Virus record (IMG/VR): IMGVR_UViG_3300029181_000086
DNA length: 6,623 nucleotides
Strand: one strand, 5' to 3'
DNA from: a virus
Lineage: Duplodnaviria; Heunggongvirae; Uroviricota; Caudoviricetes
A program made the translations under genes and the position numbers. This document shows positions 2,144-3,670 of the stretch, one piece after another (within the stretch, counting starts at the first letter, position 1; each line of letters begins with the position of its first letter). The notes under the pieces were generated by a model. It saw nothing but the letters and a program-made list of their open reading frames with translations, searched no databases and was not told the origin of the DNA.

Positions 2144-3670
2144 ATGAAAAAAGCCATAGCATATATGCGATTTTCATCACCAGGTCAGATGTCTGGCGAC
2201 TCATTAAACCGACAGAGAAGACTTATTGCTGAATGGTTAAAGGTAAATAGTGATTATTATCTTGATACCATAACATATGAAGATTTAGGATTAAGTGCAT
2301 TCAAAGGAAAGCATGCACAATCAGGAGCTTTTTCGGAATTTTTAGATGCTATAGAGCATGGTTATATATTGCCAGGAACTACATTGTTAGTTGAAAGTCT
2401 GGACAGACTTTCAAGAGAAAAAGTCGGTGAAGCGATTGAACGTCTGAAATTGATTTTGAATCACGGTATTGATGTTATAACTCTTTGCGACAATACAGTC
2501 TATAATATTGACTCTTTGAATGAGCCATATTCATTAATAAAAGCCATACTTATAGCACAAAGGGCAAATGAAGAAAGCGAGATAAAGTCAAGTCGGGTTA
2601 AATTATCATGGAAGAAAAAACGGCAGGATGCACTGGAATCAGGTACGATTATGACGGCGTCTTGTCCGAGATGGCTCTCCTTAGATGACAAAAGAACGGC
2701 TTTTGTTCCAGACCCCGACAGGGTGAAAACTATTGAGCTAATTTTTAAACTCAGGATGGAAAGGCGCTCATTGAATGCAATAGCCAAGTATTTAAATGAT
2801 CATGCTGTAAAGAATTTCTCAGGAAAAGAAAGTGCATGGGGACCTTCTGTAATTGAAAAATTATTAGCGAATAAAGCTCTGATAGGTATTTGCGTACCTT
2901 CATATCGTGCAAGAGGGAAAGGGATAAGTGAAATCGCTGGCTATTATCCCAGAGTCATATCAGATGATTTGTTTTACGCTGTACAGGAAATTCGGTTGGC
3001 ACCTTTTGGTATTAGCAATAGTAGCAAGAATCCTATGCTAATAAATCTACTTCGAACAGTTATGAAGTGTGAGGCTTGTGGTAATACCATGATTGTTCAT
3101 GCGGTATCTGGAAGTTTGCATGGCTATTATGTTTGTCCGATGAGAAGATTACATCGATGTGACAGGCCATCAATAAAAAGAGATTTGGTTGATTATAATA
3201 TCATTAATGAATTGCTTTTTAATTGTAGCAAAATTCAACCAGTTGAAAACAAGAAAGATGCTAATGAAACTTTAGAGTTAAAAATTATTGAGCTTCAGAT
3301 GAAAATTAATAATTTAATCGTTGCATTGTCTGTCGCGCCTGAAGTTACCGCTATAGCAGAGAAAATAAGACTATTAGATAAGGAATTACGAAGGGCTTCG
3401 GTATCATTGAAAACTTTGAAGAGTAAAGGTGTAAATTCATTCAGTGATTTTTATGCTATTGACTTAACCAGTAAAAATGGACGAGAGTTATGCCGTACAC
3501 TTGCCTATAAAACATTCGAAAAAATCATAATTAATACGGATAATAAAACCTGTGATATCTATTTTATGAATGGCATTGTTTTTAAACACTATCCTTTAAT
3601 GAAAGTAATATCCGCCCAGCAGGCGATAAGTGCTCTCAAATATATGGTTGATGGTGAGATTTATTTCTAA
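2144..3670 (+). CDS. ybcK: Large serine recombinase (resolvase/invertase-type catalytic domain, recombinase domain, zinc ribbon, coiled coil)
   Basis: 508-aa ORF. N-terminus AIAYMRFSSPGQ fits the serine-recombinase catalytic motif (Y-x-R-x-S-x-x-x-Q). C-terminal Cys cluster CEACGN...YYVCPMRRLHRC and a heptad-like stretch LELKIIELQMKINNLIVALS are typical of large serine recombinases. AGGTG SD 7 nt upstream. AT-rich coding sequence. Confidence 0.9.
   Translation: MKKAIAYMRFSSPGQMSGDSLNRQRRLIAEWLKVNSDYYLDTITYEDLGLSAFKGKHAQSGAFSEFLDAIEHGYILPGTTLLVESLDRLSREKVGEAIERLKLILNHGIDVITLCDNTVYNIDSLNEPYSLIKAILIAQRANEESEIKSSRVKLSWKKKRQDALESGTIMTASCPRWLSLDDKRTAFVPDPDRVKTIELIFKLRMERRSLNAIAKYLNDHAVKNFSGKESAWGPSVIEKLLANKALIGICVPSYRARGKGISEIAGYYPRVISDDLFYAVQEIRLAPFGISNSSKNPMLINLLRTVMKCEACGNTMIVHAVSGSLHGYYVCPMRRLHRCDRPSIKRDLVDYNIINELLFNCSKIQPVENKKDANETLELKIIELQMKINNLIVALSVAPEVTAIAEKIRLLDKELRRASVSLKTLKSKGVNSFSDFYAIDLTSKNGRELCRTLAYKTFEKIIINTDNKTCDIYFMNGIVFKHYPLMKVISAQQAISALKYMVDGEIYF

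What the first reader, a model, noticed from the sequence alone, without database searches (positions are those of the whole stretch)
2144..3670. Large serine recombinase embedded mid-prophage, far from the prophage end
A 508-aa protein with a resolvase-type catalytic motif, zinc ribbon and coiled coil is the architecture of phage-integrase-type large serine recombinases. Lambdoid prophages integrate with a tyrosine integrase at the prophage end, so a second, unrelated recombinase in the early-right region suggests either a nested integrative element or a domesticated recombinase. Serine-recombinase att sites usually lie next to the gene, making 1890-2143 and 3671-4134 the candidate regions.
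Basis: partly seen in the sequence, partly recalled or inferred. Interest (0 to 1): 0.6.

Follow-up and report, generated by a model that had tools for sequence, protein, structure and literature searches.

The report
YbcK: orphan serine recombinase in lambdoid prophage
The 508-residue gene is ybcK of the E. coli DLP12-type lambdoid prophage, an already annotated but uncharacterised large serine recombinase that looks catalytically intact, is strongly conserved, and rides as an extra gene beside the phage's normal tyrosine integrase, with no recognisable attachment sites next to it.

Summary
Window 2144-3670 (+) is ybcK, a full-length large serine recombinase (LSR). It has the resolvase, recombinase and zinc-ribbon domains, a predicted coiled coil, and an intact catalytic Ser/Arg set. 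Its predicted fold matches solved φC31, Bxb1 and Listeria integrase complexes.

It is a second recombinase. Intact relatives (phages PhiR34_1, 4A7) carry a tyrosine Int at the prophage end and ybcK in the ren-ninB (nin) slot.

The gene is not decaying: dN/dS is about 0.08 across 51 intact alleles, and only 1 of 85 loci is disrupted.

The "nested integrative element with att sites next to the gene" reading gets little support:
- A clean 2,083-bp indel (1897-3979) separates this locus from a chromosomal emrE-ybcL-ybcM remnant, but that remnant is about 10% diverged.
- No 40-50-bp dyad exceeds chance. The best palindrome is an RNA hairpin after emrE.
- In the 12 ybcK-carrying records of the phage collection, ybcK always travels with emrE.
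- It is single-copy, and 85 loci show no inversion or permuted prophage.

The most likely reading is a stand-alone accessory LSR of the delayed-early region, acting on sites that lie elsewhere and remain unknown. The gene and its annotation are already known; its function is not.

The parts
2144..3670 (+). ybcK coding sequence, 508 aa large serine recombinase
   Evidence: ORF; three Pfam domains; PHROG 95 integrase; annotated ybcK in RefSeq genomes; fold match to solved LSRs
2153..2626 (+). resolvase-type catalytic domain plus helix E (residues 4-161); catalytic R9, S11, D87, R88, R91
2714..2995 (+). recombinase domain (residues 191-284)
   Evidence: Pfam PF07508; model
3047..3214 (+). zinc-ribbon domain (residues 302-357) with C309, C312, C331, C339
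3242..3430 (+). predicted coiled coil (helices 367-397 and 401-429)
   Evidence: AlphaFold2 secondary structure; full-length Foldseek matches to LSR complexes
1897..3979 (.). 2,083-bp ylcJ-ybcK segment, absent from the chromosomal emrE-ybcL-ybcM remnant of other E. coli; 34.4% G+C
   Evidence: blastn break points against ATCC 25922 and HH45; composition
1937..2086 (+). ylcJ, a 49-aa hydrophobic small ORF always found upstream of ybcK in E. coli
   Evidence: ORF; annotated ylcJ; no family match
1920..1945 (+). 7-bp-stem hairpin after emrE, followed by a T-rich tract and overlapping the ylcJ start codon. It is the best dyad in the upstream candidate region but behaves as an RNA structure, not an att site
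   Evidence: dyad scan 14/20, p about 0.09; variants keep pairing through A:T to C:G and G:U-type changes
A Rho/NusG-dependent terminator that silences ybcK in K-12 is reported here
   Evidence: no significant dyad or terminal repeat; PMC4150792
Only the first 9-41 nt are shared with other phage types
   Evidence: best dyad 12/20, p about 0.6; break at 3679-3711 against O157, Turner and Perceval types
1557..1889 (+). emrE (SMR efflux pump), the invariable left neighbour of ybcK in phages
   Evidence: Pfam; the same 12 phage records carry emrE and ybcK
4135..5493 (+). ybcL (PEBP family) and ybcM (AraC family), one of at least nine alternative contents of the slot between ybcK and ybcN
   Evidence: Pfam; size classes of the variable segment in 85 loci
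5526..5585 (+). conserved right border of the variable slot: a TTGATTT/AAATCAA palindrome, a CATAAT hexamer and a 9-bp-stem hairpin
   Evidence: all slot variants converge on this sequence; coordinates

Best explanation
ybcK encodes a catalytically competent large serine recombinase of the phage-integrase type. It is carried as a stand-alone accessory gene in the variable ren-ninB (nin) slot of DLP12-like lambdoid phages. It is not the prophage's integrase; a tyrosine Int/Xis at the prophage end does that job. It is also not the engine of a self-contained element bounded by att sites in this window.

Shown here: the architecture, the intact active site, the presence of a tyrosine integrase in the same phages, strong purifying selection, complete linkage with emrE in the 12 carrier phage records, and the absence of att-like dyads, partner sites or rearrangements around the gene.

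Inferred from what is established for large serine recombinases: dimers bind two sites of about 40-50 bp and synapse as a tetramer. Ser11 cuts all four strands at a central dinucleotide and forms 5'-phosphoserine links. One half of the tetramer rotates 180 degrees and the ends are rejoined.

Inferred from gene order and from the reported Rho-dependent terminator upstream: the gene is silent in the lysogen. It is read only when delayed-early transcription is antiterminated, or when Rho silencing fails.

Its substrates are therefore most likely sites elsewhere, on the host chromosome or on co-resident related phages. The ylcJ-ybcK segment reached its place between emrE and ybcL by ordinary mosaic recombination between phages, not by its own site-specific integration.
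For: - Domains, fold and active site.
- Tyrosine Int/Xis occurs in the same genomes: DLP12-type intD at tRNA-Arg, the O157 prophage at icd, phage 4A7, PhiR34_1, and a Pantoea dispersa prophage carrying a 42% homologue between its replication genes and Q.
- Purifying selection: median dN/dS 0.08 over 857 allele pairs; 51 distinct intact alleles; 1 disrupted copy among 85 loci.
- Carriage by sequenced phages, always with emrE: the same 12 records.
- One copy per genome at the median, and the same context in 1,427 genomes.
- No significant dyad in 1890-2143 or 3671-4134. No consistent terminal repeats in five homologue groups. No partner site in the complete 4A7 or PhiR34_1 genomes apart from one emrE-end remnant. 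No minus-strand HSPs in 85 loci.
- The slot is variable with or without ybcK.
- Homologues in other genera share only the gene plus 65-220 bp upstream and 0-400 bp downstream across different prophage slots.
- Rho/NusG-dependent termination upstream of ybcK: PMC4150792.
Against: - No substrate has been identified, so activity itself is unproven.
- The 2,083-bp indel with ends inside the two flanking intergenic regions is what an inserted element would leave.
- att sites of serine integrases are weakly palindromic and short, so a dyad scan can miss them.
- A few nominally significant short repeats sit at module borders: a 13-nt direct repeat at 1894-1906 and 3659-3671, p about 0.03, and a 13-nt inverted repeat in L010/L096, p about 0.003-0.01.
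- In four genera the homologue is the last or nearly last gene at a prophage end next to host DNA. The family may therefore include true integrases.
- In the window's own defective prophage pR and N are deleted, so the proposed expression route cannot operate there.
Confidence: 0.5

Rival explanations
1. Nested mini integrative element. The ylcJ-ybcK segment (1897-3979) is a 2.1-kb element that YbcK itself inserted between emrE and ybcL. attL would lie near 1897 and attR near 3979, and the element could excise as a circle.
For: - A clean 2,083-bp presence/absence difference exists against emrE-ybcL-ybcM loci in 2,627 genomes.
- The left end lies 247 bp upstream of the ybcK start, a usual distance for an att site.
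- In other genera the gene moves as a single-gene unit between slots.
- Two homologue loci (L096, L025) have about 2.9-3.0 kb inserts flanked by diverged copies of the interrupted phage gene, with the joint 150-320 bp upstream of the recombinase.
- G+C is lower than in the neighbours.
Against: - The 'empty' loci are about 10% diverged chromosomal remnants, not the same lineage. Apart from one mosaic, still chromosomal locus (HH45, 94.6% identity), no empty site above 90% identity exists, and none lies in a phage.
- The ends share only AATAAT.
- There is no dyad symmetry above chance at either end.
- The right end differs between phage types (3679/3711 against 3979).
- There is one context only in 1,427 E. 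coli genomes and 12 phage records.
- The flanking gene fragments in L096 and L025 are 86% and 73% identical. This fits unequal recombination between different phages.
Confidence: 0.2
2. Second integration module for the whole phage. An attP lies close to ybcK, and the phage can use YbcK to integrate at an alternative bacterial site when its tyrosine system or its site is unavailable.
For: - PHROG 95 'integrase' and full-length similarity to phage integrases.
- Homologues of 50-60% identity sit at the right end of prophages next to host genes in Atlantibacter (beside ssrA), Ewingella, Erwinia and Yersinia.
- Distant relatives in Burkholderia phages occupy the usual integrase position.
- Palindromes lie 75-85 bp upstream of the start in some homologue groups.
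Against: - None of the E. coli loci examined in detail (85, plus the listed rows of the 1,427 carrier genomes) is a prophage permuted at ybcK; the flanks are always continuous.
- Homology between end-located and nin-located homologues stops at the stop codon, so any downstream attP was not carried along.
- In Erwinia two accessory ORFs separate the recombinase from host DNA, and the end-located copies sit among umuD-like and dinI-type morons.
Confidence: 0.12
3. Accessory function that benefits phage or host through action on foreign DNA. Examples are exclusion of, or recombination with, competing phages, or capture and exchange of the cassettes in the adjacent hypervariable slot.
For: - Purifying selection without a cis substrate.
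- The gene sits in a slot with exclusion and defence-type cargo: ren next door, and a SIR2 gene in L096.
- At least nine alternative cassettes lie directly downstream.
- Small serine recombinases of cryptic prophages have recently been tied to phage defence (PMC12529663, listed).
Against: - No PADLOC model matches.
- The slot is variable in phages without ybcK.
- The cassette borders carry ordinary lambdoid boundary sequences, not repeated att-like sites.
- ybcK is silenced in the K-12 lysogen.
Confidence: 0.12
4. Inactive relic: a captured integrase gene that is no longer used and is drifting.
For: - DLP12 in this window is defective, with a deletion joint at 969/970.
- No substrate was found.
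- The gene is transcriptionally silenced in K-12.
- Deleting it did not affect excision of an unrelated island (PMC5426353).
Against: - dN/dS is about 0.08 and 84 of 85 copies are intact.
- All catalytic and zinc-binding residues are kept across genera at 40-60% identity.
- The gene is present in viable phages.
Confidence: 0.04

Closest known systems
Phage-encoded large serine integrases (φC31 Int, Bxb1 gp35, TP901-1 Int, Listeria A118/LI Int)
   Same: Same domain order: catalytic domain, helix E, recombinase domain, zinc ribbon with an inserted coiled coil. Same catalytic Ser/Arg/Asp set. Full-length fold match, and membership of PHROG 95 'integrase'.
   Different: Sequence identity to solved members is only 14-20%, and no PDB hit appears by sequence. 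The gene is not in the integration module, has no recognisable attP beside it, and coexists with a tyrosine Int/Xis. No directionality factor is evident.
Serine recombinases that excise developmental or prophage-like elements (SpoIVCA/CisA of the skin element, XisF, SprA of SPβ)
   Same: Large serine recombinase architecture. The NCBIfam XisF model gives a weak hit (E 1.9e-12, far below cut-off). A published profile search paired YbcK with CisA (PMC6637259).
   Different: Those enzymes lie inside the element they excise, next to its end, and that element interrupts a host gene. Here no interrupted gene and no element ends were found.
Serine 'transposases' of the TnpX/TndX type and Ccr recombinases of SCC elements
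   Same: Large serine recombinases that move small cargo-bearing elements through a circular form. The 2.1-kb ylcJ-ybcK indel is superficially similar.
   Different: There is no DUF4368 domain, a single context and copy in E. coli, and no end similarity.
Pin/Gin/Hin small DNA invertases of prophages (PinE, PinQ, PinR)
   Same: Same catalytic domain family (PHROG 125, E 2e-21). These are also 'extra' recombinases in lambdoid prophages, and PhiR34_1 carries one as well.
   Different: They are about 190 aa with a C-terminal helix-turn-helix and sit beside an invertible tail-fibre segment. YbcK is 508 aa with recombinase and zinc-ribbon domains, and no inverted repeats or inversions surround it.
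Lambdoid 'morons' and nin-region accessory genes
   Same: It lies in a hypervariable slot between conserved genes, has deviant G+C, and has alternative contents in sister phages.
   Different: Morons are typically expressed from the prophage. ybcK is silenced by Rho in K-12, and it encodes a DNA recombinase rather than a host-fitness factor.

Membership tests
Large serine recombinase (phage-integrase type) | N-terminal resolvase-type catalytic domain with nucleophilic Ser and conserved Arg/Asp | tested here: met
   PF00239 E 5.5e-19. YMRFSSPGQ and ESLDRLSR motifs: S11, D87, R88 and R91 are invariant and R9 nearly so in 64 sequences. DRLSR aligns to D67/R68/R71 of γδ resolvase.
Large serine recombinase (phage-integrase type) | Recombinase domain, zinc-ribbon domain with four Cys, and an inserted coiled coil | tested here: met
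   PF07508 and PF13408; C309/C312/C331/C339 conserved; helices 367-429 in the model; Foldseek E 1e-19 to 1e-10 against 9dxd, 9tep, 9iu2 and 4kis.
Large serine recombinase (phage-integrase type) | Gene lies in the integration module, at one end of the integrated element | tested here: not met
   In E. coli it lies between ren/emrE and ninB-type genes, 8-10 kb from the tyrosine int. Some homologues in other genera lie at a prophage end, but their role is unresolved.
Large serine recombinase (phage-integrase type) | Imperfectly palindromic att sites of about 40-50 bp around a central dinucleotide, next to the gene | tested here: inconclusive
   The best dyads score 14/20 (p about 0.09, an RNA hairpin) and 12/20 (p about 0.6). 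No consistent end repeats appear. Real att sites can be too weakly symmetric for such a scan.
Large serine recombinase (phage-integrase type) | Catalyses attP x attB recombination; excision needs a directionality factor | not testable with these tools
   No biochemical data were found in the library searched.
TnpX/TndX-type serine transposases | DUF4368 domain; several insertion sites or copies; circular intermediate | tested here: not met
   Only three Pfam families match and none is DUF4368. The median is 1 copy and the maximum 2, always after emrE-ylcJ.
Pin/Gin/Hin DNA invertases | About 190 aa with a C-terminal HTH; inverted crossover sites flanking an adjacent invertible segment | tested here: not met
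   The protein is 508 aa. There are no strong inverted repeats and no inverted HSPs in 85 loci.
   A precise 2,083-bp indel exists. The empty loci, however, are about 89% identical chromosomal remnants, with one mosaic chromosomal locus at 94.6%. No phage-borne empty site was found.
   In E. coli there is a single context. Across genera only the gene with short flanks is shared between contexts.
Lambdoid accessory (moron-type) cargo | Occupies a variable slot between conserved genes and has a deviant composition | tested here: met
   The ren-ybcN interval has many alternative contents. G+C is 34-36% against 48-51% in the backbone.
Lambdoid accessory (moron-type) cargo | Autonomously expressed from the repressed prophage | not tested
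   The literature points the other way. ybcK is kept off by a Rho/NusG-dependent terminator in K-12 (PMC4150792). It is not among the morons listed in the passages read for the Perceval prophage (PMC9928086).

The most novel reading that the evidence does not exclude
YbcK-family enzymes could be a distinct class of 'orphan' large serine recombinases. In this reading, temperate enterobacterial phages keep them under strong selection in accessory slots alongside a complete tyrosine integration system. The enzymes act in trans on sites outside their own neighbourhood. Possible roles are a back-up integration route, a weapon or bridge between co-resident phages, or the agent that loads cassettes into the adjacent hypervariable slot.
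Probability: 0.15. Interest if true: 0.6.

Novelty: already known. Interest (0 to 1): 0.3.

Why it matters
ybcK is one of the few site-specific recombinase genes of E. coli K-12 still without a function. The data here show it is not junk. It is under strong purifying selection, is carried by viable lambdoid phages, and is present in about a quarter of complete E. coli genomes. If its sites were found, two things would follow. They would reveal a second, unsuspected site-specific recombination system in well-studied lambdoid phages. They could also add a Gram-negative large serine recombinase to the genome-engineering toolbox. As a scan result, though, it is the rediscovery of an annotated gene, and the att-site prediction attached to it did not hold.

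Tried and rejected
- **Dyad-symmetry scan.** I scanned both candidate regions for 20+2+20 dyads against shuffles and found nothing above chance. The one good palindrome (1920-1945) is an RNA hairpin, judging by G:U-type covariation.
- **Terminal repeats.** I looked for direct and inverted repeats at the module borders in E. coli and four homologue groups. A few nominal hits appeared, but with no consistent pattern.
- **Partner sites.** I searched the complete 4A7 and PhiR34_1 genomes. The only hit was a remnant of the emrE 3' end in esterase-type phages.
- **Inversions.** There are no minus-strand HSPs in 85 loci. No G-segment-like inverted repeats lie near the end-located homologues.
- **Defence-system models.** PADLOC gave no match.
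- **Rfam.** No RNA family matched anywhere in the window.
- **Sequence search of the PDB.** A single-sequence search, a profile search and a search with the N-terminal domain alone gave no recombinase hit. Only the fold comparison worked.
- **Flanking gene-fragment duplications.** I considered those in L096 and L025 as footprints of site-specific insertion. Unequal recombination between different phages explains them equally well, because the copies are only 73-86% identical and filler DNA separates them from the shared module.
- **A directionality factor.** I looked among the neighbouring small ORFs (ylcJ, the 48-aa ORF, and ORFs near the homologues). None has a telling family match.
- **The other prophage end.** I could not reach the far end of the prophages in which the homologue is terminal, because the flank limit is 10 kb. 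Whether those phages also carry a tyrosine integrase remains open.
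Full report
**What is in the window.** The window is the early-right (nin) region of a DLP12-type lambdoid prophage of Escherichia coli. In order it carries the 3' part of replication gene P (795-1190), ren (1187-1489), emrE (1557-1889), ylcJ (1937-2086), ybcK (2144-3670), ybcL (4135-4686), ybcM (4696-5493), ybcN (5708-6163), ninE and ybcO. Positions 1-970 come from the early-left arm and are fused to P at 969/970. This is the deletion that makes DLP12 defective. A block of low G+C (36%, against 48-51% in the backbone) runs from emrE to ybcM.

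**The observation.** The 508-aa ORF is real and has the stated architecture.
- Pfam finds Resolvase (4-161), Recombinase (191-284) and Zn_ribbon_recom (302-357), all above the curated cut-offs. PHROG 95 'integrase' covers residues 1-486 at E 4e-120.
- An AlphaFold2 model built on 64 homologues (pLDDT 85) shows the catalytic domain, helix E, the recombinase domain, the zinc ribbon and two long helices at 367-429.
- Foldseek matches the model over its full length to solved serine-integrase/DNA complexes, including φC31, Bxb1 and the Listeria integrase (E 1.8e-19 to 1e-10). Sequence searches of the PDB found none of these, so the family is remote from the studied enzymes.
R9, S11, D87, R88, R91 and the four zinc-ribbon cysteines are invariant in 17 enterobacterial homologues of 42-61% identity, and invariant or nearly so in 64 sequences reaching down to 27%.
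- Profile alignment places LLVESLDRLSRE on the D67/R68/R71 segment of γδ resolvase, and the CxxC...C...C segment on the Bxb1 zinc ribbon.

**It is a known gene.** This is ybcK (UniProt P77698). RefSeq annotates it as 'recombinase family protein', and it is listed among the 16 site-specific recombinases of K-12 (PMC5426353). A profile-search paper paired it with B. subtilis CisA (PMC6637259). The library I searched holds no paper that assigns it a substrate or role. The only phenotypes reported are sabinene tolerance on over-expression (PMC7181518) and no effect on excision of an unrelated island.

**It is a second recombinase, and viable phages carry it.**
- PhiR34_1 is an intact DLP12-like phage. 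It has a tyrosine integrase at its left end (18-1181), ybcK at 9603-11129 and also a Pin-type invertase after the tail-fibre genes.
- Phage 4A7 has int and xis beside an icd fragment at 28.8-30.1 kb and ybcK at 39.8-41.3 kb.
- The O157 prophage at icd and the DLP12-type prophage at tRNA-Arg show the same pairing.
- A Pantoea dispersa prophage has a tyrosine integrase at its end and a 42% homologue between its replication genes and Q.
- ybcK is present in 1,427 of 5,426 complete E. coli genomes, with a median of one copy and a maximum of two. In the phage collection it occurs in 12 records, and these are exactly the 12 that carry emrE.

**It is maintained by selection.** Among 85 E. coli loci I found 51 distinct intact alleles and one disrupted copy. 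The median dN/dS over 857 pairs is 0.08. This excludes a decaying relic.

**Is it a nested element with att sites beside the gene?** One fact speaks for this. In 2,627 genomes emrE, ybcL and ybcM lie together without ybcK, beside fliE and next to a porin gene. This is evidently an old prophage remnant.

The rest speaks against it:
- The remnant is about 10% diverged. The single closer case, HH45, is a mosaic with phage-type genes and a chromosomal-type spacer. No phage-borne empty site turned up.
- The two ends share only AATAAT.
- A scan for 20+2+20 dyads gave 14/20 in the upstream region (p about 0.09) and 12/20 downstream (p about 0.6).
- The upstream hit is the hairpin at 1920-1945 after emrE. 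Natural variants keep its pairing through an A:T to C:G double change and through G:U-type changes, which make sense only in RNA. It is therefore a transcript structure, not a protein-binding palindrome.
- The right limit of the conserved unit differs between phage types: 3679-3711 in the O157, Turner and Perceval types against 3979 here.
- None of the 85 loci shows an inverted segment.
- Neither complete phage genome holds a second copy of the ybcK flanks, apart from a remnant of the emrE 3' end in esterase-type phages.

**The slot.** The interval between ybcK and a conserved border at 5526-5585 holds at least nine alternative contents in 85 loci. Examples are ybcL-ybcM, an esterase, an antirepressor fragment, and an IS2-like insertion (identified from memory of the IS2 end sequence; IS3-family transposases are annotated at this locus). 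The ren-ybcN interval is also variable in phages that lack ybcK, so the variability is a property of the slot and not evidence for YbcK activity.

**The family elsewhere.** Homologues of 40-61% identity occur in Atlantibacter, Yersinia, Erwinia, Pantoea, Ewingella, Citrobacter and Kluyvera, always in prophage DNA. They occupy two kinds of place:
- The nin-type region between replication genes and Q (L010, L096, L102, L025).
- The right end of the prophage after the tail-fibre assembly gene, within about 1.4 kb of host DNA. Examples are L088 beside ssrA, L093, L097 before lepA, and L091.

Between contexts, homology is limited to the gene plus 65-220 bp upstream and 0-400 bp downstream. The gene therefore moves as a single-gene module.

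The end-located copies could be true integrases, since this is the usual place of an integration module. But they sit among umuD-like, umuC-like and dinI-type accessory genes whose order changes from genome to genome. I could not reach the other prophage end, so this stays open.

Two loci (L096, L025) have inserts of about 2.9-3.0 kb flanked by 86% and 73% identical copies of the interrupted phage gene. The joints are separated from the shared module by unrelated filler DNA. Unequal recombination between different phages explains these as well as site-specific insertion does.

**Most likely mechanism.** I take YbcK to be an active large serine recombinase kept as a stand-alone accessory gene.
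- The chemistry is inferred from the family: dimers on two short sites, a synaptic tetramer, Ser11-linked double-strand breaks at a central dinucleotide, 180-degree subunit rotation and religation.
- Expression is inferred from position. The gene lies in the delayed-early operon downstream of ren and emrE.
- In K-12 it is shut off by a Rho/NusG-dependent terminator in its leader (PMC4150792). It should therefore be made mainly when transcription is antiterminated after induction. In the window's own prophage this route is lost with the deletion at 969/970.
- The substrates are not in the flanks and not elsewhere in the phage genome as recognisable repeats, so they most likely lie on other DNA.

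I give this reading about 0.5. The rivals are a self-mobile nested element (0.2), a second integration module (0.12), a trans-acting competitive or cassette-loading role (0.12) and an inactive relic (0.04).

**Verdict.** The 'second recombinase' point is right. The att-site prediction is not borne out, and the nested-element idea is weakly supported at best. The feature is an annotated gene of the best-studied bacterial genome, so as a discovery it is already known. What remains interesting is that an intact, strongly constrained integrase-type enzyme rides in viable lambdoid phages without any visible site to act on.

Noticed in passing
window 969-970: Deletion joint of the defective prophage. 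Early-left genes (TraR-like, DUF1382) are fused to the 3' part of replication gene P. Many related loci break or carry an IS3 insertion at exactly this point.
   Followed up: partly
window 1920-1945: A hairpin after emrE overlaps the ylcJ start codon. Natural variants keep the stem through compensatory and G:U-type changes. This suggests an emrE terminator or a translational control of ylcJ.
   Followed up: partly
window 3930-3959 (minus strand): The stem-loop AACACC...GGTGTT is followed on the minus strand by a T-run. It looks like an intrinsic terminator for leftward transcription coming from the ybcL side.
   Followed up: no
window 5526-5585: A conserved 60-nt border lies upstream of ybcN: the palindrome TTGATTT/AAATCAA, a CATAAT hexamer and a 9-bp-stem hairpin. 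All variants of the accessory slot converge on it. It may be a lambdoid 'boundary sequence' or a promoter plus structure.
   Followed up: partly
L001 6077-7936 and L103 4961-6820 (E. coli chromosome between fliE and yedK): About half of complete E. coli genomes (2,627 of 5,426) carry emrE-ybcL-ybcM next to a porin gene beside fliE. This copy is about 89% identical to the phage copy, and it is probably a fixed remnant of a DLP12-like prophage. Strain HH45 is a mosaic of phage-type genes and a chromosomal-type spacer.
   Followed up: partly
window 1894-1906 and 3659-3671: A 13-nt direct repeat (ATTTGTTTCTAAA / ATTTATTTCTAAA, 12 of 13) sits at the left end of the indel and across the ybcK stop codon. 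Nominal p is about 0.03 in AT-rich DNA. Its meaning is unclear.
   Followed up: partly
L095 39552-39571 and 41625-41644 (phage 4A7): In esterase-type phages a 20-nt copy of the emrE stop-codon region, with traces of the emrE 3' end, recurs 283 nt after the ybcK stop. The ylcJ-ybcK unit is thus bracketed by direct repeats in that lineage only.
   Followed up: partly
L088 9092-9684, L093 9212-9845, L097 12207-12772, L096 12094-12327, L099 6526-8514: YbcK homologues repeatedly sit next to SOS-type accessory genes. These are a conserved 80-aa ORF paired with a UmuD-like S24 peptidase, umuC-like polymerase genes, and dinI.
   Followed up: partly
L096 5755-7695; L025 6338-8656: Probable defence cargo lies in the same slot as the recombinase homologues. 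L096 has a 646-aa SIR2_2 protein. L025 has a three-gene cluster on the minus strand with an HTH-like protein and a thymidylate-kinase-like protein; I judged the L025 cluster by eye from the translations and did not scan it against any family library.
   Followed up: no
L099, L011, L014 and L012, L013, L093, about 75-85 bp upstream of the recombinase start: Short perfect or near-perfect palindromes (GCTCAATAATTGAGC; TGTTCACAAAATGAACA) lie at or near the left limit of cross-context homology. They could be operators or recombinase sites. No counterpart exists upstream of E. coli ybcK.
   Followed up: partly
L186 (phage PhiR34_1, whole genome): This intact DLP12-like phage encodes three site-specific recombinases of different kinds: a tyrosine integrase, YbcK and a Pin-type invertase.
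   Followed up: no
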